Assembly: GCA_001787585.1 (NCBI GenBank)
Contig: MFXW01000047.1
Location: 1 to 42,161, forward strand
Source: Candidatus Peribacteria bacterium RIFCSPHIGHO2_02_FULL_53_20
GTDB taxonomy: Bacteria; Patescibacteriota; Gracilibacteria; Peribacterales; Peribacteraceae
Direction: 5' to 3'
Length of the DNA stretch: 42,161 nt
Each line of letters opens with the position of its first letter. Position 1 is the first letter of the stretch. Positions 826 through 40,709 of the stretch are shown piece by piece. Made by a program: the position numbers and the translations under genes. The notes below the pieces were generated by a model, which did no database searches, was not told where the DNA came from, and saw nothing but the letters and a program-made list of their open reading frames with translations.

Positions 826-1740
826 ATGAAAATCTTGGTCACTGGTTCATCAGGAACGATTGGCACCCGCCTCTGCGAAACGCTCCTGCAAAAAGGCTAC
901 GACGTTGCCGGTGTCGACTGGGTACCCAATAAATGGCAGCCGGCTGTGCAAAAAATCACCACGATCCTCGACCTCCGGGACAGAGAAGCTCTCATAGCGC
1001 ATAGCTCACAGCTCACAGCTGACGTGATCATCCACCTCGGCGCCAATGCCCGCGTCTATGAACTTGTGGAAGATCCTCCACGTGCGCTGGATAATTTCAT
1101 CACGCTTTTTAATACGCTGGAATTCGCACGCAACAATGGTATCAAAAAATTCTTCTTCGCTGGTTCTCGTGAAGGATATGGCAATATCCAGGTCGACAGA
1201 CTCACAGAGGACTTGGTGCGCGTCGAAAACTGCGAGAGCCCCTACACCGCAAGCAAAGTCGGCGGCGAAGCGCTCGTTCATGCCTACACACGCTGCTACG
1301 GAATTGATCATGTGATCATCCGCTTTAGTAATGTATACGGCGCCTACGACGATTCCGTCCGCGTCGTGCCCCTCTTCATCCGTCAGGCGCGCAAGAATGA
1401 AACGCTGAAAATCTTCGGCAAAGACAAATGTCTCGACTTCACCTACATCGACGACGCCGTCTCCGGCGTGATCAAGGCACTTGAAAAATTCGATGCTGTG
1501 AAAAATGACACCTATAACCTCGCATTTAGCGAAGGCACGACAATCCTGCGACTCGCGGAGATGATCATCGAACTCACGGGATCGAAGTCGAAAATTGAAC
1601 TTGGGGAGTCGCGAACGGGAGAAGTCATCCGGTATGTGGCGGATATTTCAAAGGCGAAGAAGGCCTTCGGATATGATCCCAAAACACCGTTTGCAGAAGG
1701 AGTGAAGAAGACGGTGGAGTGGTATGCCAAACATACATAG
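826..1740 (+). CDS. NAD-dependent nucleotide-sugar epimerase/dehydratase (extended SDR)
   Basis: ILVTGSSGTIG Rossmann motif, YTASK (YxxxK), RFSNVYG, DFTYIDD. Confidence 0.92.
   Translation: MKILVTGSSGTIGTRLCETLLQKGYDVAGVDWVPNKWQPAVQKITTILDLRDREALIAHSSQLTADVIIHLGANARVYELVEDPPRALDNFITLFNTLEFARNNGIKKFFFAGSREGYGNIQVDRLTEDLVRVENCESPYTASKVGGEALVHAYTRCYGIDHVIIRFSNVYGAYDDSVRVVPLFIRQARKNETLKIFGKDKCLDFTYIDDAVSGVIKALEKFDAVKNDTYNLAFSEGTTILRLAEMIIELTGSKSKIELGESRTGEVIRYVADISKAKKAFGYDPKTPFAEGVKKTVEWYAKHT
993..1020 (+). repeat. Degenerate heptamer tandem repeat inside the epimerase CDS
   Basis: CATAGCG CATAGCT CACAGCT CACAGCT, encoding the IAHSSQLTA segment. Confidence 0.55.
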
Positions 1741-3610: not shown

Positions 3611-6600
3611 ATGAAAACCGCACACAACGCGTGTTTCAAACGTCCGGTCAGCACGATCACCATCGTCGGTCTCACGCTCGTCGCATCGGTTTCCGTACGT
3701 TTATGGCACAGTGCCGCTACGGGGCAAGTCGCCCAAAGCTGCGGGGACAGTATTACCGTTGCACCGGAGCAGTGTGACGATGGCAATTATGACGCCCGGG
3801 ACGCATGTGCAAGCTGCCGCTGGACGTTTACGTGTGGTGATCGCAGTCTTTCCAATTACGAAGAGTGTGAAGACGGCAACACAGCAGACGGTGACGGATG
3901 CAACAGTGTATGTGTAAGGGAGAATGCCCCCGCAGGGCTTTCCCTGTCTTGGAATCCAGAACCAAGTTTGCCTACGACCGGAGGGGAATTCGCCGCTACC
4001 GTTGCACTTGGGAAGATGTGGATTATTGGCGGCACAGCACCGGGAGCCGGCATCTCAGACAAAGTATTTGCATCAGCGGATGGAGCAACGTGGCCGCAGA
4101 TAGGCACACTGCCCTATAAAGTCTACGGAGCATCAGCAATCGAATGGAATGGAGAGTTGTGGGTGATCGGGGGTGCGGGCTGCGGACAGAACTGCTACTA
4201 CAAGACGACATATCACTCTTCCGACGGAATAATCTGGTTGCCGGGACCAACTCTCCCCACTACCGCCATCGCATACAATGCCCCCATCTACATATACAAT
4301 GGAACGCTTTTTGCTCCGACAAGTTCAGCGACGGGTCTCCGCAAGACATACGGTCTGGCAAATGCCTCAGCTCAATGGACCCATCTTGCTTCCTGGTACG
4401 GCGGATCGATCACCACATTCCAAAATGCCTTATGGGGAATCAGCGGACGCATGATCTCCACCTCCACAAATGGAACGAGCTGGCAGTCTGCGAGCATTTT
4501 TCCTTCCTGGCTCAGTACGGGGCGCTATGTGGTGAACCCCGGTCAGCTCGTGGCACATGGGGGATATCTTTTCGCTATCGGCAATGCGAATGATCCGAAT
4601 GCCACGATGAGGAGCCCCAACTGTTTCAAGGTGATATTGTCTTCAGTCGATGGCAGGAACTGGGGGAAAACAGCCACATCACCATGTCAAAAACCCATTG
4701 CCAATCACCAGCTTCTTTCTTTTCACGATCGTCTTTGGATGATCGGGGGAGGATTGGCATTTTCAGCCACTGTTCCAAGTAGCAATGCAGTGTGTGGCAA
4801 TGGAGCTATGGAAAGCAATGAGCAGTGTGATGATGGTAATCGAGATACTAGTGACTCTTGTAGTAACGATTGTCGGCGCTTGGGCTGCGGCGACGGTATC
4901 GTTCAAGGCGGAGAACAGTGTGATGACGGAAACCAGGTGAATACCGACACCTGTACAAATGTCTGCCAATCCGCACGATGCGGCGACGGTATCAGGCGCC
5001 CTTCCGAACAATGTGACGATCAAAATATCATCGCCGGAGATGGCTGCTCTGCTCTGTGTACCGTGGAACCGGGATTCAGCTGCACTGGGGAAACACTGAG
5101 TACCTGCGTACGGATGTGTGGTAATGGAACACTGAATTCCGGCGAAACATGCGATGACCGGAATTTCACGGGTGGTGACGGATGTTCTGCGGCATGTGGA
5201 CTGGAATTCGGCTTCACTTGTAACGGTACCCCCAGTGTGTGCACTCCTCTTCCGCAGGGAACTTGTCTTCTCAATCGTCTGGTGAGTCACTGGAAACTTG
5301 ATGAACCGATGACCAGCGGTGCTCAGTTTCACCCACGGTCGCACAAAGATAGCCACGGATCGATCTCTCTCATCGAAGAAACAAGCGACGCGGCAAACGG
5401 CATTGGGACAGGGCCTGGACAGATCAATCTGGGGCTCGGTCTCGAAACAAGCTACTCCGGTGAGCGCCTTCGCGCGGAATCCCCTCTACTGTCACTCGGA
5501 GATACTCGTACAAGCGGATTCACCTTCGCGCTGTGGATCTATCCTTCTCTACGAATGAACAACCAGTCGTACGCACAGGGAATCGCGGAGAAGCCAGGAG
5601 AATTTAAGATCGCCATGACGAATAGCAATGTTATCTTTACCGTCATGAACGGCGCGCAAAGCCAAACAGTATCAACACCAATCACGCCCATCAATGGGAC
5701 ATACAAATACTCGCTCCTGACGGTATGGATGGATCCGCAGACACAGACCATCGGTATCCAAACGGGCAGGTCTGATCTGCAGTGGAACCCTGCTGTGACC
5801 GCATCATGGAACGGAGGAATAGGAGATAGAACGCAGCCCATGAAAATCGGTGCTGTTGCCGGTCAACCGCAGTATGGAGGATCTGTGGACTCGATCAGTC
5901 TCTGGAAGCGGACACTCACATCCGAAGAGCGCAGTAAGCTTTTTGCATTCGGAGCAGGTCTCGATTATGCATCCTTCGGTCATGTATGCAGTGCGACTCC
6001 CATCTGCGGCGATGCCATCGTTCAGGTTGGTGAGCAATGTGACGAGGGCGCGATGACGGATACAGGAAGGTGTACAAGAAACTGTCGCCTGGCTGTCTGC
6101 GGTGACAGTCTCACACGCACAGGAACGGAAGAATGCGACGACGGCAACCAGGTAAATACCGATGCATGCACGACTACCTGCAAGCGAGCTGCATGCGGAG
6201 ATAGATTCATTCAGCCGGGTGAAGAATGTGATGACGGGAATACGACGGCAACCGATGCCTGCACGCGAACGTGTAGAAACGCCCGCTGTGGTGATGGAGT
6301 CGCGCGCGCCGGCGTCGAGCAATGTGATGACGGAAATGCCGTAAGTAATGATGGTTGCGACGCACAGTGCAGATTCGAAACGATGACCCGCGACCGCTGT
6401 CTGCAGAACGTCAACAAACTCTGGGATCTCGCGCGCGGATGCATCGACAAAATCCGCTGCTACGAATACAACCGCAGCACTTGCCCGTCCTTTATTCCGT
6501 CCAACTACAAACCATGCAAAGTGGTGGGACAAACGTGCGCAGACGATTTCTCCCGCAACGGCCCAGGGGCGCCGAAGCGCTGCAATCAGATGAATCAACA

Positions 6601-36436: not shown

Positions 36437-37501
36437 ATGAAAAGCATCATCTGCAATCCCAGTTACGGAAATAATCCGTACATCCGGACAACGGAAATGG
36501 CTCTAAAGTTAAGCGACAAGCTCGGAGAGAATATTTCCGTGGTCGTTCCGCATCTGTATGGTGAAAAGCAGACACGCATCCTCCGCGAAACCTTCGGGGA
36601 AGATCCTCGTATTATTCTCGATGAAACATTCGGAATAATTCTCCGAAAAATATTCTTCGAGGGTACTTCGTATGCTGCGTTTCTAGAACAATGGATGGGT
36701 GAGTCAGATGCAATCAGTGAGGAAGCGCAGGAATATCTGCATGCAACGTATGACATTCTTTGTGAAATCAGCCGCTCCCCTCTTCTGAATCTCGGGATTT
36801 CACCAGCATTTTACAACTCCTGGTTCCGCACATCAGTCATTCTCGAGAGAGCGGCAACCGAACCCGCAATCGCGATCGATAAGACGCTCTTACAAACCGC
36901 AGCGGAAAAATTCCGTGCCTTGGAATCCCGATACCAGCTTCATATGATCAGCGTGCCGGGCACATTCGATCCCGGAAAAGACGATACGCCTATTCCTCTC
37001 GGCGTTTCCCTGCCCGTGGTCGATGAACAGGTTGTGCAGCACGGCGTATATGTCACCGTCAGTGGTATTCCGGATGTCGGTCCCCTGCAAAGTATCGCCG
37101 ATCGCCTGGGAATCAAAATCTACGCATCCGATTCTGCAAAGATCCAGAGGTCTGTACATGCCCTTCCCGGCATTCTCGCGCATCAGGAAATTGTTGCGCA
37201 CATCGCGCGCGCCGGATGGGGAGCCATTGGTACTTCCCTCGCCACCGGCACTCCACTGATTGTTCCCGCATATCAGAAAGACGAAGATCCGGAGATTTTC
37301 TTCAACATCCGCCGCATTGAAGAACTTGGACTTGGCGTGGAATTCCGTAATCAGACGGCAACCGAACTTTTGGCAATGATGAAGATTTTGCGACCAAGAA
37401 TCGCGGAATACCGTGAAAAACTATTGGAGCAATTCGGAACGCTGGATGGGGCACAAATGGCTGCAAACATCATTGCTGAGAAATTATTGGAAAATTATTG
37501 A
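36437..37501 (+). CDS. GT-B fold protein with a GT28/PseG-like C-terminal domain
   Basis: IARAGWGAIGTSLATGTPLIVP...E...NIRRIEELGLG. Starts on the base immediately after the previous stop (TAAATG). Confidence 0.62.
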   Translation: MKSIICNPSYGNNPYIRTTEMALKLSDKLGENISVVVPHLYGEKQTRILRETFGEDPRIILDETFGIILRKIFFEGTSYAAFLEQWMGESDAISEEAQEYLHATYDILCEISRSPLLNLGISPAFYNSWFRTSVILERAATEPAIAIDKTLLQTAAEKFRALESRYQLHMISVPGTFDPGKDDTPIPLGVSLPVVDEQVVQHGVYVTVSGIPDVGPLQSIADRLGIKIYASDSAKIQRSVHALPGILAHQEIVAHIARAGWGAIGTSLATGTPLIVPAYQKDEDPEIFFNIRRIEELGLGVEFRNQTATELLAMMKILRPRIAEYREKLLEQFGTLDGAQMAANIIAEKLLENY

Positions 37502-37509
37502 AGTAGGTG

Positions 37510-37744
37510 GGTGGGTTCCGCGCGCCACGGGGGGTGCCGGGGAAGACCCTGTTTTCCGCCCGCAGGCGGAAGTCGAGATGGAAACGCCGAATCCTTGCAG
37601 GCGTTTCCATCGAGACACAGGGTCGAGTAGTTCGAAAAACTCACTACAGGCTCCGGGGCTTGGCGCGGCCTGCCCTGAGCTGGGTCGAAGGGTGGGCTTT
37701 TCTTTGCTACTTTACTTTTGTCCGGCAGACAAAAGAAAGTAGAT
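37510..37744. ncRNA. Structured dispersed repeat / candidate ncRNA, copy 1
   Basis: Homologous to 39507-39703, with compensatory substitutions in several stems and a long terminal hairpin. Confidence 0.6.
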
Positions 37745-37771
37745 ACTGTTAGCATCGACCCAACTCAACCT

Positions 37772-38740
37772 ATGGTAAAAATTATCGCCGAACTCTGCCA
37801 AAACCACTGCGGCGACCGCTTGCTTCTTTCGGAAATGATTGCTGCTGCAGCCGAAAACGGCGCGGACATCGTCAAATCCCAGATTATCTTCTCCGAAGAC
37901 CTCATGCATCGACCACAGTTTGATGAAGGAAAAATCCTCTCAGACGGCACCGTTATTACGATCAAGCGCCCATATGCCGCGGAATATGAACGACTGAAGG
38001 TGCTCGATCTCGCAGAGGACGACCATCGGTTCTTCATCGATGAATGCAAACGCAGGAAAGTCCTTCCGATGACTACTATCTTCAGCCGCAATCGTATTCT
38101 GTTTGCCGCTTCCCTGCCCTGGCCGCGTCGCATTGTAAAAGTCGCCAGCTATGACTGTGCAAGTTTTCCGATGCTCGAGGAGCTTGCAGAGCGCTTTGAC
38201 CATGTCTACATTTCCACAGGCGCAACGTTCGACGAAGAAATCGCGAAGACTGCGGATATCATGCACAAAGCCGGAAGAACATTCTCACTGCTCCACTGCG
38301 TGACGAGTTACCCGAATACGATGGAGATGTGCAATCTCCGCCGCATGCAGTGGCTCAAGCAATTCACGCCCTCCATTGGTTGGTCTGACCATACGCTTGT
38401 GAAGCGTGACGGTCTCAAGGCGAGCAAAGCGGCAATCGCCCTTGGAGCGGATGTGATTGAGCGGCACTTCACCATCCTTCCCGAAGACAAAACCAAAGAT
38501 GGTCCTGTTTCGATCACACCTGCGATGCTGAAGGAATTGAAAGAATTTTCTGCGCTTGATGTCGCGACCCAGACAAAGGAAATCCGGAAAGAGATCCCCG
38601 ATTGGGAAACGATCCTCGGTACTGAAACACGACCATTAACGCCGACAGAGCTGCTGAATCGCGATTATTACCGTGGGCGGTTTGCGAGCAAGGTGAATGA
38701 CCAATGGGTGTATAACTGGGAACGCGCAGCGATCATATAA
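37772..38740 (+). CDS. NeuB-family synthase lacking the SAF domain (NeuB3)
   Basis: IIAELCQNHCGD, VKVASYD, ISTGA, LHCVTSYP, GWSDHT, IERHFT. Start at ATG 37772 because the longer ORF starts inside the repeat. Confidence 0.88.
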   Translation: MVKIIAELCQNHCGDRLLLSEMIAAAAENGADIVKSQIIFSEDLMHRPQFDEGKILSDGTVITIKRPYAAEYERLKVLDLAEDDHRFFIDECKRRKVLPMTTIFSRNRILFAASLPWPRRIVKVASYDCASFPMLEELAERFDHVYISTGATFDEEIAKTADIMHKAGRTFSLLHCVTSYPNTMEMCNLRRMQWLKQFTPSIGWSDHTLVKRDGLKASKAAIALGADVIERHFTILPEDKTKDGPVSITPAMLKELKEFSALDVATQTKEIRKEIPDWETILGTETRPLTPTELLNRDYYRGRFASKVNDQWVYNWERAAII

Positions 38741-38749
38741 CGGAGATTC

Positions 38750-38779
38750 CCGATACACCGATACACCGATATCCGATAT
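38750..38779. repeat. Short 7-8-mer tandem repeat, intergenic
   Basis: CCGATACA CCGATACA CCGATAT CCGATAT. Confidence 0.6.
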
Positions 38780-38792
38780 TCTCATCGCAGCA

Positions 38793-39503
38793 ATGACACG
38801 CACGCCCTCTGTCCTCGGCATCATTACTGCTCGCAGCGGCAGCAAAGGCATCCCGAATAAAAATATCGCGCCGCTCAAAGGCAAACCCCTCATCGTCTAT
38901 ACGATTGAAGCGGTACAGAACAGTAAACTCCTCACGCGTACCGTTGTTTCCACAGATAGCGAGGAGATCGCCTCGATCGCAAAGAAGCATGGTGCGGAAG
39001 TGCCGTTCCTGCGCCCTGCGGAACTCTCGACGGACAGCGCCCTCGCTCTCGACGTTCTCGCCCATGCGATCACACACTGCAAGGAACACGACGACCAATC
39101 GTATGATTACGTCATGATGCTCCAACCGACTTCTCCGCTGCGGACGGGCGAAGACATCGACGCCTGCATTCGCATCGCCGCCGAAACCGACGCCGACTCC
39201 GTCTTCAGTATGAAAGAGCTGCCCGACTTCGCTCCGCAGAAGATCAAGACGATTGAGAATGGCGAGATCAAGCCCTTCATTGCGGAGGAAAAAGGACAGT
39301 CCGCTCCACGTCACAAAGCCAAAAAAGCCTATAAGAGAAACTGTGCCGTGTACCTCACGCGCACAAATCTGATTCTCAAGGGTGATCAGTTCGGCAAGAA
39401 ATCGATGGCGTACGTGATGCCCCAGGAACGCAGTATCGACATCAATGATCCTGTGGATCTGGAACTGGCGGAGTTTTGGATGAAGAAACTCAACATGCTC
39501 TAA
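38793..39503 (+). CDS. neuA: Acylneuraminate cytidylyltransferase (NeuA2)
   Basis: ITARSGSKGIPNKN, VSTD, PFLRPAELSTD, LQPTSPLR, SIDIND. Confidence 0.92.
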   Translation: MTRTPSVLGIITARSGSKGIPNKNIAPLKGKPLIVYTIEAVQNSKLLTRTVVSTDSEEIASIAKKHGAEVPFLRPAELSTDSALALDVLAHAITHCKEHDDQSYDYVMMLQPTSPLRTGEDIDACIRIAAETDADSVFSMKELPDFAPQKIKTIENGEIKPFIAEEKGQSAPRHKAKKAYKRNCAVYLTRTNLILKGDQFGKKSMAYVMPQERSIDINDPVDLELAEFWMKKLNML

Positions 39504-39506
39504 GCC

Positions 39507-39703
39507 GGTGGGGTTCCGCGCGCCACGGGGGGTGAAGGGGGAGGCCCTGTTTTCCGTCCGCCTCAGCGGACGGAAGTCGAGCCGGGAATGCCGAATCCTT
39601 GCAGGCGTTCCCGGCGAGACACAGGGCCGGGCGGAGGGGTTCTGGCGCGCGGTGGGCTTTTCTTTGCTACTTTCTTTTGTCCGGCAGACAAAAGAAAGTA
39701 GAT
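39507..39703. ncRNA. Structured dispersed repeat / candidate ncRNA, copy 2
   Basis: Nested stems CCGCGCGCCA/TGGCGCGCGG and GGCCCTGT/ACAGGGCC, two inner hairpins, and the terminal hairpin CTACTTTCTTTTGTC-CGGCA-GACAAAAGAAAGTAG. Confidence 0.6.
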
Positions 39704-39761
39704 CTCGAATACATGGCAAATGCGGTTTAATTATCACTGCGTACGCTACAATTTCTTCGCA

Positions 39762-40709
39762 ATGCCTCTAAAAATTTTATGCACCGTCGGCGACGCCTAC
39801 CCCGCAGAAGCTAAAAGCATTCTGGAATCCATCGGCACCGTTGACTACGCACTGCCTACGCAAAAACAGATTGCCAAAATCATCGGCAAGTACGATGCCG
39901 TCGTCGCACAACTTGGAGTGACTTTCAGTGAGGAAGTCCTGAAGCATGCGAAGAAACTCCGTGTCATCGCAAGCGCCACGACGGCGACGGACCATATCGA
40001 CCATGCAGCAGCGAAGAAACGCGACATCAGGGTCATCAGCCTCAAAGGGGAAACCGCATTCCTGAAAACCATCCCCTCTACGGCAGAGCACACATGGGGA
40101 CTGCTCCTTGCGCTGCTGCGTCACATCGTCCCCGCATCGAACGCTGTTATAGGGGGAACATGGAACGGAAAGCCTTTTGCAGGTACGGAGCTTCAGGGAA
40201 AGACTCTCGGAATCATTGGCGTAGGGCGACTGGGGACGATTGTTGCCGGCTACGGAAAGGCATTCGGATTGCATGTCATCGGTTGTGATCTGAAGAAAAT
40301 CCCGCAATCGGTATGCAAGCAGGTGCCGATGGATATGCTTCTGCGCACGAGCGACATCGTCTCTTTGCATGTGCACCTCACGCCGGAAACAAAGAACATG
40401 ATCGGAGCTGCCGAACTCAACAAGATGAGACCAACCGCGGTTCTCATCAATGCCGCCCGCGGCGGCATCGTCGATCACGATGCACTCTTGCGGGCACTCA
40501 AATCTAAAACAATAGCGGGCTACGCCGCCGACGTGCTTGCGGGGGAAATGCAATTCGGCACAGATAGTTCCGCGCATCCTCTGGTGCGGTACGCCAAAAC
40601 ACATGCCAACGTTCTTCTGACGCCGCACATCGGTGGGCGCACAACAGAAGCTAGGAGGAAAACCGACGTCTTTATCGCAGAGAAACTCAGGATTGCGCTC
40701 ACTCCATAA
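39762..40709 (+). CDS. D-isomer-specific 2-hydroxyacid dehydrogenase
   Basis: TAEHT, ELQGKTLGIIGVGRLG, INAARGGIVD, LLTPHIGG. Confidence 0.92.
   Translation: MPLKILCTVGDAYPAEAKSILESIGTVDYALPTQKQIAKIIGKYDAVVAQLGVTFSEEVLKHAKKLRVIASATTATDHIDHAAAKKRDIRVISLKGETAFLKTIPSTAEHTWGLLLALLRHIVPASNAVIGGTWNGKPFAGTELQGKTLGIIGVGRLGTIVAGYGKAFGLHVIGCDLKKIPQSVCKQVPMDMLLRTSDIVSLHVHLTPETKNMIGAAELNKMRPTAVLINAARGGIVDHDALLRALKSKTIAGYAADVLAGEMQFGTDSSAHPLVRYAKTHANVLLTPHIGGRTTEARRKTDVFIAEKLRIALTP

What the first reader, a model, noticed from the sequence alone, without database searches (positions are those of the whole stretch)
37510..39703. Two copies of a ~200-235 nt highly structured element with covarying stems
Seen: copies at 37510-37744 and 39507-39703 are in the same orientation, each just after a stop codon. 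Many differences preserve pairing. GACCCTGT/ACAGGGTC becomes GGCCCTGT/ACAGGGCC. GATGGAAACGCC/GGCGTTTCCATC becomes GCCGGGAATGCC/GGCGTTCCCGGC, around an invariant 11-nt loop GAATCCTTGCA and with a tandem-GA internal loop at the stem base. TTCCGCC/GGCGGAA becomes TTCCGTCCGC/GCGGACGGAA. Both copies have a closing stem (CGCGCCA/TGGCGCG) and a ~15-bp terminal hairpin preceded by TTTTCTTTG. Inference: selection acts on a folded RNA or ssDNA, so this may be an ncRNA or a non-autonomous mobile structured element. I cannot assign it to a named family, and no mobilising enzyme is encoded in the window. This is my best candidate for an undescribed system.
Basis: partly seen in the sequence, partly recalled or inferred. 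Interest (0 to 1): 0.78.

Follow-up and report, generated by a model that had tools for sequence, protein, structure and literature searches.

The report
Folded mosaic repeat family of Peribacteria
The two look-alike stretches are copies of a folded, non-coding repeat that Peribacteria scatter between their genes, made of a branched stem domain joined to a hairpin that can take up a third strand; selection clearly keeps its shape, but what it does is not yet known.

Summary
The two copies (37510-37744, 39507-39703) belong to a family with 14 model matches in this 1.13-Mb genome. It has matches in 28 of 41 genera searched in one family of Candidatus Peribacteria, with up to 37 matches per genome. 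No Rfam family matches. Each copy has two modules. The first is a ~140-nt three-way-junction domain with strong covariation. The second is a ~55-nt 3' module: a pyrimidine tract followed by a hairpin. That tract tracks the hairpin's purine arm in parallel register across 47 sequence variants, which is the signature of an intrastrand triple helix. This module belongs to a known kind, the PIT/BoxC/TMECO triplex repeats. Joining it to a conserved branched domain has not been described. Copies are gained, lost and remodelled at orthologous intergenic sites and are rare between divergent genes. Their orientation follows GC skew (68 of 79), not gene direction. Whether they work as RNA or as single-stranded DNA is unresolved. 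This scan has noted triplex-type repeats before in other genomes, but not this sequence. Verdict: a real, new variant of a known kind, of moderately high interest.

The parts
37510..37744 (+). Copy A, whole element. It is a variant with two insertions, about 37625-37660 and 37669-37690.
   Evidence: Model R1 scores it 188.3 bits. Fold. Alignment.
37519..37668 (+). Copy A 5' domain. P1 is 37519-37527 with 37661-37668. P2 is 37545-37552 with 37617-37624. P3 is 37554-37560 with 37565-37571. P4 is 37572-37574 with 37614-37616. Tandem G-A loops are at 37575-37576 and 37612-37613. P5 is 37577-37588 with 37600-37611. The conserved loop is 37589-37599.
37698..37706 (+). Copy A third-strand (Hoogsteen-candidate) pyrimidine tract.
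   Evidence: Parallel match to the purine arm.
37707..37742 (+). Copy A hairpin. The 5' pyrimidine arm is 37707-37722 (bulged A at 37714), the loop is 37723-37727, and the 3' purine arm is 37728-37742.
39507..39703 (+). Copy B, whole element, close to the family consensus.
   Evidence: Model R1 scores it 226.6 bits. Fold.
39517..39651 (+). Copy B 5' domain. P1 is 39517-39525 with 39643-39651. The G-rich joiners are 39526-39542 and 39629-39642. P2 is 39543-39550 with 39621-39628. P3 is 39552-39561 with 39566-39575. P4 is 39576-39578 with 39618-39620. Tandem G-A loops are at 39579-39580 and 39616-39617. P5 is 39581-39592 with 39604-39615. The conserved loop is 39593-39603.
39652..39666 (+). Copy B linker (39652-39657) and third-strand pyrimidine tract (39658-39666).
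   Evidence: Nine consecutive parallel matches to 39690-39698.
39667..39701 (+). Copy B hairpin. The 5' pyrimidine arm is 39667-39681, the loop is 39682-39686, and the 3' purine arm is 39687-39701. The basal 3 bp lie below the candidate triple helix.
39704..39761 (+). Spacer after copy B, up to the ATG of the next gene. Three congeners lack it together with the element.
   Evidence: Alignment of the orthologous sites. Gene start.
36437..37501 (+). Upstream gene of copy A (354 aa, no Pfam family).
37772..38740 (+). NeuB-family gene between the copies.
   Evidence: PF03102, E 8.6e-47.
38697..39503 (+). Cytidylyltransferase gene that ends 3 nt before copy B.
   Evidence: PF02348, E 2e-26.
39762..40709 (+). 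2-hydroxyacid dehydrogenase gene downstream of copy B.
   Evidence: PF02826, E 2.1e-51.

Best explanation
The copies belong to a Peribacteria-specific family of interspersed, non-coding mosaic repeats. Each unit joins a conserved three-way-junction domain, closed by a GC stem, to a 3' module in which a pyrimidine tract lies just before a hairpin with a pyrimidine 5' arm and a purine 3' arm. On the sense strand this order (third strand, pyrimidine arm, purine arm) is the class IV intrastrand triple-helix arrangement. A short pairing between the linker and the hairpin loop may turn it into an H-type pseudoknot. Shown: the family exists. The fold of the sense strand is kept by compensatory change, including between orthologous copies. 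The third-strand tract co-varies with the hairpin. Units are gained, lost or remodelled at intergenic sites. They avoid spacers between divergent genes. Their orientation follows the strand asymmetry of the chromosome rather than the genes. Inferred: the units are non-autonomous genomic elements that act, or are constrained, as folded single strands at the replication fork. This would resemble other single-strand-dependent repeats. An unidentified host factor is assumed to recognise the shared 3' module. Where they happen to lie sense to a gene, as in this window, they are co-transcribed. There the same fold would act as a barrier at the end of, or between, cistrons.
For: Spread: 14 model matches in the own genome. 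Matches occur in 28 of 41 genomes (one per genus) of family f1, with up to 37 per genome. blastn finds it in 24 of 60 relatives, all in f1. Of 80 listed pattern hits in 185,579 species genomes, 74 are Peribacteria, Peregrinibacteria or Patescibacteria records. Fold. G-U cells outnumber A-C cells 324 to 84 in 97 distinct sequences. Orthologous copies differ by 2-10 compensatory pairs. Third strand: of 123 distinct purine-arm hairpins, 112 have a parallel run of 6 or more upstream on one strand, against 10 of 123 on the other strand. Across 47 distinct purine cores the parallel match beats the antiparallel in 24, ties in 23 and never loses. In a permutation test the observed value is 0.831 against 0.646+-0.017, reached by 0 of 2000 permutations. 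The tool count on 20 hand-picked modules gives 100% and 95% of cells, against 62-90% when slid. The tract usually ends exactly at the stem, with 3-4 basal pairs below it. Turnover: the site of copy B is empty in 3 congeners. The site of copy A is occupied in one congener and holds a different motif in another. Two sites that carry reduced forms here carry full copies elsewhere. Orientation: the sense strand lies on the locally C-rich strand in 21 of 23, 24 of 28 and 23 of 28 cases. There is no link to the majority coding strand (15 against 13). A control motif splits 11 against 10. Convergent spacers outnumber divergent ones 17 to 2, 12 to 3 and 9 to 4. The same 3' module ends at least three different repeat classes.
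Against: No mobilising enzyme was found. Y1 transposases are missing from the two genomes richest in copies. No terminal inverted repeats were seen, and no target duplication could be read. A branched fold with invariant unpaired nucleotides, kept by compensatory change at orthologous sites, is more typical of a functional RNA than of selfish DNA. In this genus every copy between co-directional genes is sense to them (for this genome; 16 sense against 3 antisense, most of the 16 from this genus by my reading of the rows). They also fill the gap from stop codon to next start. The commonest module in the unbiased sample (run of 5-6, 34 of 63) places G opposite G-C pairs. That triple was not among the stable ones in the MALAT1 tests (abstract). 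Which strand is the leading one is not settled, because dnaA is not at a skew switch in 3 genomes. Gene calls come from my own crude codon-usage caller.
Confidence: 0.5

Rival explanations
1. It is a cis-acting RNA element of polycistronic mRNAs. The unit is transcribed with the upstream gene. The triple-helix hairpin, and perhaps the branched domain, then block exonucleases or helicases. The effect would be to set 3' ends, protect the upstream cistron or insulate neighbouring cistrons, as REP elements do in enterobacteria and ENE triple helices do in eukaryotic and viral RNAs.
For: The pyrimidine-motif order on the sense strand is the one that can form in RNA (Holder et al. 2015, introduction). 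G-U cells far outnumber A-C cells. In this genome all 6 full copies lie between co-directional genes, sense to them, 0-10 nt after a stop in 5 of the 6 and 20-77 nt before the next start. The upstream gene is co-oriented in 38 of 58 elements with a call. Divergent spacers are avoided. The conserved unpaired nucleotides and the tandem G-A loop are RNA-like features.
Against: Outside this genus, sense and antisense placements between co-directional genes are about equal: 19 to 15, 8 to 5 and 10 to 5. Orientation follows GC skew, not genes. Orthologous operons do without the element. No U-tract follows the hairpin, and the simple scan finds no terminator there.
Confidence: 0.3
2. It is a regulatory or catalytic RNA. 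On this view the branched domain is a ligand- or protein-binding aptamer or a self-cleaving ribozyme, and the 3' pseudoknot is its expression platform.
For: It has a three-way junction, two invariant G-rich joiners, an 11-nt conserved loop and a tandem G-A loop. H-type triple-helix pseudoknots are known from riboswitches (review PMC13541005, passages read). The linker and the loop are more complementary than chance: 2.90 against 2.42+-0.06.
Against: The downstream gene is co-oriented in only 21 of 61 elements with a call. Neighbouring genes are unrelated in function. Orthologous genes lack it. Short forms without the junction persist. No Rfam family matches.
Confidence: 0.08
3. It is a recently active miniature transposon, and its folds are only by-products of its inverted repeats.
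For: It is multi-copy. Occupancy of orthologous sites varies. One insertion sits in frame and antisense inside a Wzy_C gene.
Against: Copies within one genome are only 69-89% alike, and their differences are compensatory. Copies at orthologous sites have persisted across species. There are no terminal inverted repeats. The structure is branched rather than a simple palindrome.
Confidence: 0.08
4. It is a simple local duplication with no wider meaning, or a short coding sequence.
For: Within the window only two copies exist, 2 kb apart. Open frames cross both copies.
Against: There are hundreds of copies in dozens of genera. Stem covariation, and indels that are not multiples of three, argue against coding.
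Confidence: 0.01

Closest known systems
Intrastrand triplex repeats of bacteria (PIT elements, BoxC, TMECO; Holder et al. 2015, NAR 43:10126, PMC4666352; I read the introduction and three result sections, and Hoyne et al. 2000 only as cited there)
   Same: Three consecutive blocks on one strand can fold into a hairpin plus a third strand. They are multi-copy and intergenic, with no partner transposase known. They are linked to variable loci. A class IV order on one strand implies a class II order on the complement.
   Different: TMECO is a ~37-nt G/C-rich purine-motif unit that stands alone and shows no strand bias in E. coli. Here the module is A/T-rich and reads as class IV on the strand that folds best. 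It is welded to a conserved 140-nt branched domain or to other long hairpins. It is also strongly oriented with GC skew. This genome carries 21 separate TMECO-pattern sites that show no such bias.
REP/BIME, BOX, ERIC and Correia-type interspersed mosaic repeats (named from my own knowledge; REP, BIME and MITE are also described in the introduction of PMC4666352)
   Same: They are modular, structured, extragenic repeats found in transcribed spacers. They are rare between divergent genes and vary between relatives.
   Different: Those are simple palindromes or have terminal inverted repeats, and REPs have a RAYT partner. This element has a three-way junction and a third-strand tract. Y1 transposases do not track it.
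H-type pseudoknots with major-groove U.A-U triples (telomerase RNA, SAM-II and preQ1-II riboswitches; review PMC13541005, passages read)
   Same: The strand order is the same: a 5' tract runs in the deep groove of the stem that follows it. The triples would be U.A-U and C.G-C. A short pairing between linker and loop is possible.
   Different: Those are single-copy functional RNAs in fixed gene contexts. The stem-1 pairing here is weak or absent in many copies (4 bp or more in 27 of 117).
ENE / MALAT1-type triple-helix RNA stability elements (PMC4836648, abstract read; PMC13541005, passages read)
   Same: A run of about 9-10 U.A-U and C.G-C triples could protect an RNA end.
   Different: ENEs clamp a 3' A-rich tail in a U-rich internal loop of eukaryotic or viral RNAs. 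Here the purine strand is an internal hairpin arm. No RNA end has been shown.
Rickettsia palindromic elements (recalled, not checked here)
   Same: A structured repeat can sit in frame inside a protein gene.
   Different: Only 1 of 41 copies does so here. The rest are intergenic.

Membership tests
Intrastrand triplex motif, class IV (as defined in Holder et al. 2015) | Three blocks on one strand in the order Hoogsteen tract, pyrimidine arm, purine arm | tested here: met
   Copy B has them at 39658-39666, 39667-39681 and 39687-39701.
Intrastrand triplex motif, class IV | 6-15 matched triads (T.A-T, C.G-C), with at most one mismatch | tested here: met
   Runs of 8-9 in 80 of 123 hairpins. In the pattern-anchored sample, 22 of 63 reach a run of 7 or more, and 34 of 63 have only 5-6, with G opposite G-C.
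Intrastrand triplex motif, class IV | Loops of 1-6 nt between the blocks | tested here: inconclusive
   The first turn is the 3-4 nt basal strand. The second loop is 5 nt only if the conserved three top pairs form, and 11 nt otherwise.
Intrastrand triplex motif, class IV | A triplex forms physically, as RNA or as DNA | not testable with these tools
   This needs melting, CD or NMR measurements.
TMECO / BoxC | The G/C-rich consensus pattern of three 9-nt blocks | tested here: not met
   The pattern, allowing one change per block, hits 21 other places in the genome and none in the window.
REP/BIME with RAYT | 20-40-bp palindromes and a Y1 transposase-like partner in the genome | tested here: not met
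   The unit is about 190 nt and branched. PF01797 is absent from G028 (37 copies) and G029 (27 copies).
MITE | Terminal inverted repeats | tested here: not met
   The folds and the alignment show that the 5' end (a G-rich leader) and the 3' end (the hairpin) are unrelated.
MITE | Target-site duplication | tested here: inconclusive
   Filled and empty sites are too diverged at the junctions to read one.
Intrinsic terminator | A GC-rich hairpin followed directly by a U-tract | tested here: not met
   The tract precedes the hairpin. The scan flags no site at either copy.
Any Rfam 15 family | A match at the gathering score | tested here: not met
   There are 0 matches in the window. At E up to 10 only chance microRNA-like hits on the hairpin appear.
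Riboswitch of the H-type triple-helix pseudoknot kind | Fixed position upstream of, and sense to, the regulated gene | tested here: not met
   The downstream gene is co-oriented in 21 of 61 elements with a call.
Riboswitch of the H-type triple-helix pseudoknot kind | Stem 1 between the segment 5' of the tract and the hairpin loop | tested here: inconclusive
   Mean complementary run is 2.90 against 2.42+-0.06 in shuffles. It reaches 4 bp or more in 27 of 117 modules, but only 2-3 bp in the two window copies.
Integron attC site | A single bulged hairpin with inverse core and core sites, in arrays of cassettes | tested here: not met
   The fold is branched and the copies are dispersed over many contigs. 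The integrase was not searched for.

The most novel reading that the evidence does not exclude
The 3' module is a true triple-helix pseudoknot used genome-wide as a general-purpose mechanical block on single strands. It would be the first bacterial counterpart of ENE-type stability elements if it acts in RNA. If it acts in DNA, it would be a fork-oriented structural signal. The conserved branched domain with its two G-rich joiners would then be a new protein- or ligand-binding fold, or a ribozyme, that processes or marks the strand next to the block.
Probability: 0.2. Interest if true: 0.9.

Novelty: new variant of a known kind. Interest (0 to 1): 0.68.

Why it matters
Candidate Phyla Radiation genomes are small and tightly packed, yet this lineage keeps up to 37 model matches per genome (24 or more module sites in this one) of an elaborate ~190-nt fold. 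Intrastrand-triplex repeats have been known for 25 years without a function. Here one is tied to a conserved partner domain. It shows three-way covariation across many sequence variants and a clear orientation rule. Together these give concrete handles for experiments. The experiments could test whether triple helices form in bacterial cells, on which nucleic acid they form, and what they do to replication or to mRNA ends.

Tried and rejected
- **RNA evidence.** No RNA holder was listed for the stretch. Laying DNA contigs of 4 runs showed only that assemblies break at the repeats, with joints to other copies, and no empty site.
- **Rfam.** It gave nothing for the window or for the second repeat class.
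- **Y1 transposase/RAYT as partner.** Present in 29 of 41 genomes but absent from the two richest in copies. TnpB, reverse transcriptase and integrase were not searched.
- **Loop-joiner pseudoknot.** A pairing between the conserved 11-nt loop and the G-rich joiners showed no consistent covariation on inspecting 41 sequences.
- **Promoter or terminator reading.** The simple scan finds neither at the copies.
- **Calling strands by ORF length or fixed windows.** Too noisy. I replaced them with a codon-usage caller trained on this genome.
- **Automatic orientation of modules by T counts.** It mis-oriented several, so I replaced it with the parallel-run criterion.
- **Fixing the leading strand from dnaA.** dnaA lies at no skew switch in G029, G028 or G015. 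Anantharaman et al. 2016 (PMC4736985, passages read) also say the origin is not apparent from gene predictions.
- **Literature searches.** 'Peregrinibacteria' with 'structured RNA' gave 0 papers. 'Peribacteria' with 'intergenic' gave 2 irrelevant papers. 'triple helix' with 'Patescibacteria' gave 6 irrelevant papers. The passages found for 'repeat' in PMC4736985 do not mention these elements.
- **Supplements.** Supplementary tables of Holder et al. 2015, and their online database, could not be seen. They may list A/T-rich class IV motifs that bear on novelty.
- **Earlier notes of this scan.** A look-up by sequence found nothing.
Full report
**What is in the window.**
- Copy A (37510-37744) starts 8 nt after the stop of ORF 36437-37501.
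- Copy B (39507-39703) starts 3 nt after the stop of the cytidylyltransferase gene 38697-39503.
- The gene order is: unknown 354-aa gene, copy A, NeuB-family gene, cytidylyltransferase, copy B, 2-hydroxyacid dehydrogenase.
- Both copies fold far better than their shuffles, with z of -5.5 and -5.8.
- No Rfam family matches at the gathering score. At E up to 10 only chance microRNA-like hits on the hairpin appear.

**It is a family, not a duplication.**
- The assembly is 1.13 Mb in 81 contigs. It holds 6 full copies, 2 short copies that keep only the closing stem, 2 with a small different 5' hairpin, and more hairpin modules.
- A covariance model built from the 6 full copies (R1) matches 28 of 41 genomes, one per genus, of the same family. 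The maxima are 37, 28, 27 and 25 matches per genome.
- blastn finds the element in 24 of 60 relatives, all within that family, and in 0 of 24 genomes from other families of the class.
- An exact 22-letter pattern from the 5' domain was scanned over one genome for each of 185,579 species. Of the 80 listed, 72 are named Peribacteria, Peribacteraceae or Peregrinibacteria. Two are 'Patescibacteria group', and 6 are unrelated organisms, about the number expected by chance.

**The 5' domain.** A GC-rich closing stem (P1) encloses two invariant G-rich joiners. Stem P2 leads to a three-way junction. From the junction run a variable hairpin (P3) and a long arm: P4, a tandem G-A loop, then P5. P5 is capped by an 11-nt loop conserved across genera.
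- On 61 distinct sequences, 95.1% of cells pair against 75.3% in shuffles. 56 of 58 pairs change on both sides. The covariation score is 0.315, against at most 0.060 when the partners are slid.
- A second set of 76 distinct sequences came from loci chosen only by the 5' pattern. It gives 91.0% against 73.1%, 51 of 58 pairs, and 0.369 against at most 0.074.
- Both alignments are fitted to the model, which favours the structure.
- The short helix between the G run and the C/U stretch varies on one side only, so it is not established.
- G-U cells outnumber A-C cells 324 to 84. The strand I call sense is therefore the one that folds.

**The 3' module.** Every unit ends with a pyrimidine tract followed by a hairpin. 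The hairpin's 5' arm is pyrimidine-rich and its 3' arm purine-rich. The basal 3-4 pairs of the hairpin covary freely.
- The tract is the mirror image of the 5' arm, so it matches the purine arm in parallel register: T for A, and C for G. When the G moves within the purine arm, the C moves in the tract in step.
- I collected all 123 distinct purine-arm hairpins in the loci held. Of these, 112 have a parallel run of 6 or more within 20 nt upstream on one strand, and 80 have a run of 8 or more. On the other strand only 10 reach 6.
- Across 47 distinct purine cores the parallel match exceeds the best antiparallel Watson-Crick or wobble match in 24, equals it in 23 and is never lower. Permuting tracts among cores gives 0.646+-0.017 against 0.831 observed, reached by 0 of 2000 permutations.
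- The pair-counting tool, run on 20 modules that I had picked for diversity, gives 100% and 95% matching cells against 62-90% when slid. That set is hand-picked, so it counts as an illustration only.
- The tract most often ends exactly where the stem begins, leaving 3-4 basal pairs below it. From the known geometry of loops that cross the deep groove in H-type pseudoknots, I infer that this spacing lets the strand re-enter the helix. This is inference, not a test.
- The segment just 5' of the tract is more complementary to the hairpin loop than chance: mean run 2.90 against 2.42+-0.06, and 4 bp or more in 27 of 117 modules. That would make the module an H-type pseudoknot. In the two window copies the pairing is only 2-3 bp.

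**Limits of the triple-helix reading.** An unbiased sample of 68 elements was anchored on the 5' pattern. In it 63 have a hairpin and 60 of those have a purine-rich 3' arm. Only 22 show a run of 7 or more. A further 34 belong to a second type, with three to five T then two G facing three to five A then two G. The remaining 7 show nothing. A G opposite a G-C pair was not among the stable Hoogsteen-position choices in the MALAT1 tests (PMC4836648, abstract). That type covaries too, for example with an extra G on both sides in one copy, but its chemistry is unclear.

**What is already known.** A word search of this scan's earlier notes pointed me to the literature on bacterial intrastrand-triplex repeats. 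I read the introduction and three result sections of Holder et al. 2015.
- Their class IV motif has the order Hoogsteen tract, pyrimidine block, purine block. That is exactly the order found here on the sense strand. The complement reads as a class II purine motif.
- They state that pyrimidine-type intrastrand triplexes can form in RNA and that purine-motif ones cannot.
- Their best-studied case, TMECO/BoxC, is a 37-nt G/C-rich unit. It is always intergenic and shows no strand bias. No promoter, terminator or regulatory role has been shown for it, and it is linked to rearranged loci.

The 3' module is therefore an A/T-rich member of a known kind. I found nothing in print on its fusion to a conserved branched domain, or on these Peribacteria elements (searches; passages of PMC4736985). 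The 2026 review of RNA triple helices names bacterial examples only in riboswitches and group II introns, in the passages I read.

**Modularity.**
- The same 3' module ends a second repeat class in this genome. It has 13 copies of a ~230-nt long imperfect hairpin with its own covariation and no Rfam match.
- The module also ends a third, smaller form.
- A model of the module alone (R2) matches 11 of 11 genomes of the family in a class-wide sample. It matches 10 of 109 genomes of other families, and there the tracts are runs of 6-8 T and A.

**Turnover at orthologous sites.**
- In congeners G001, G003 and G004 the two genes that flank copy B are 31-37 nt apart. The element and the 58-nt spacer after it are missing.
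- The site of copy A is occupied in G001. In G004 it holds a TMECO-pattern motif instead.
- The sites of three other full copies are occupied in one or two congeners.
- Two sites that hold reduced forms in this genome hold full copies elsewhere.
- Orthologous copies differ by 2 to 10 pairs changed on both sides with pairing kept. Either structure is selected in place, or copies are overwritten from other folded copies.
- One copy of 41 lies antisense and in frame inside a 612-codon frame with a Wzy_C domain.

**Position and orientation.** Gene calls here come from my own codon-usage caller, so the counts are approximate.
- In the pattern-anchored sample of 67 elements the contexts (upstream gene, downstream gene, relative to the element) are as follows: +,+ 19; +,- 17; -,- 15; -,+ 2; the rest incomplete.
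- Two further samples give convergent against divergent of 12 to 3 and 9 to 4. Their sense against antisense counts between co-directional genes are 8 to 5 and 10 to 5. These samples overlap in genomes with the first.
- The units therefore avoid spacers between divergent genes, but outside this genus they do not care about the direction of the mRNA.
- In this genome all 6 full copies are sense to both neighbours.
- Orientation follows GC skew instead. The sense strand is on the locally C-rich strand in 21 of 23 modules of this genome, with modules masked. The figure is 24 of 28 in G015 and three contigs of G028, with elements masked. It is 23 of 28 in G029 and G028 contig 6, counted by me without masking.
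- Within G028 the strand flips between contigs of opposite skew.
- There is no association with the majority coding strand (15 against 13).
- The 21 TMECO-pattern sites of this genome split 11 to 10, so the method itself does not create the bias.
- By the usual rule the C-rich strand is the lagging strand. I could not confirm this, because dnaA lies at no skew switch in three genomes.

**Reading.** It is established that this is a lineage-wide family of non-coding mosaic repeats, that the sense-strand fold is under selection, and that the 3' tract co-varies with the hairpin as a third strand would.

I favour, at about even odds, that these are genomic elements whose orientation and perhaps spread are governed by single-strandedness at the replication fork. 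RNA effects would then be secondary, arising where a copy happens to be co-transcribed.

The main rival, at about 0.3, is a primary role in mRNA as an end-forming or protective barrier. That rival fits this genus and the RNA-compatible chemistry of the sense strand, but not the orientation data elsewhere. A riboswitch, ribozyme or classical transposon reading is less likely. No mobilising or binding protein was identified.

**What could not be tested.** No RNA run holds the stretch, and laid DNA contigs only break at the repeats. Formation of the triplex, the acting nucleic acid and the function all need experiments.

Noticed in passing
Own genome outside the window, e.g. G000:C72:12215-12660, C10:17200-17640, C59:4560-4965 (13 copies): A second repeat class. 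It is a ~230-nt long imperfect hairpin with compensatory changes, followed by the same tract-plus-hairpin module and a conserved ~40-nt tail with a further small hairpin. Rfam has no match.
   Followed up: partly
Own genome, 21 sites (e.g. C15:11442-11473, C73:11939-11970); also L089 (G004:C46) at the site orthologous to copy A: G/C-rich motifs fit the published TMECO/BoxC triplex pattern with at most one change per block. They show no orientation bias with GC skew (11 against 10). One occupies, in a congener, the spacer that holds copy A here.
   Followed up: partly
L036:695-2533 (G028:C6), element at L036:1497-1688: A copy lies antisense and in frame inside a 612-codon open frame that carries an O-antigen-ligase (Wzy_C) domain downstream of the insertion. 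It adds about 63 hydrophilic codons.
   Followed up: partly
G000:C65:6929-7040 and C38:6734-6844: In these short forms the whole junction (P2-P5) is replaced by 11-13 nt, while the closing stem, the G-rich joiners and the 3' module remain. The C65 site holds a full copy in congener G001.
   Followed up: partly
G029:C1:338450, G028:C3:42905, G015:C1:370231: dnaA lies at no GC-skew sign switch in three nearly complete genomes of the family. In G029 the switches lie near 500-600 kb and near 1100 kb.
   Followed up: partly
window 3767-6336: Repeated 26-42-nt units (families D2 and D3 of the repeat scan) encode a cysteine-rich motif, Glu-Gln-Cys-Asp-Asp-Gly-Asn. They probably belong to the large cysteine-rich proteins described for Peribacteria in PMC4736985 (passage read). 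I did not test this against Pfam.
   Followed up: no
window 1622-1725 and 2195-2298: A 104-nt direct repeat, 83% alike, with copies 573 nt apart (family D1 of the repeat scan).
   Followed up: no
window 39704-39761: The 58-nt spacer between copy B and the next start codon is missing from three congeners together with the element. In several copies the ~20 nt after the hairpin share a loose motif, so the repeated unit may extend beyond the hairpin.
   Followed up: partly
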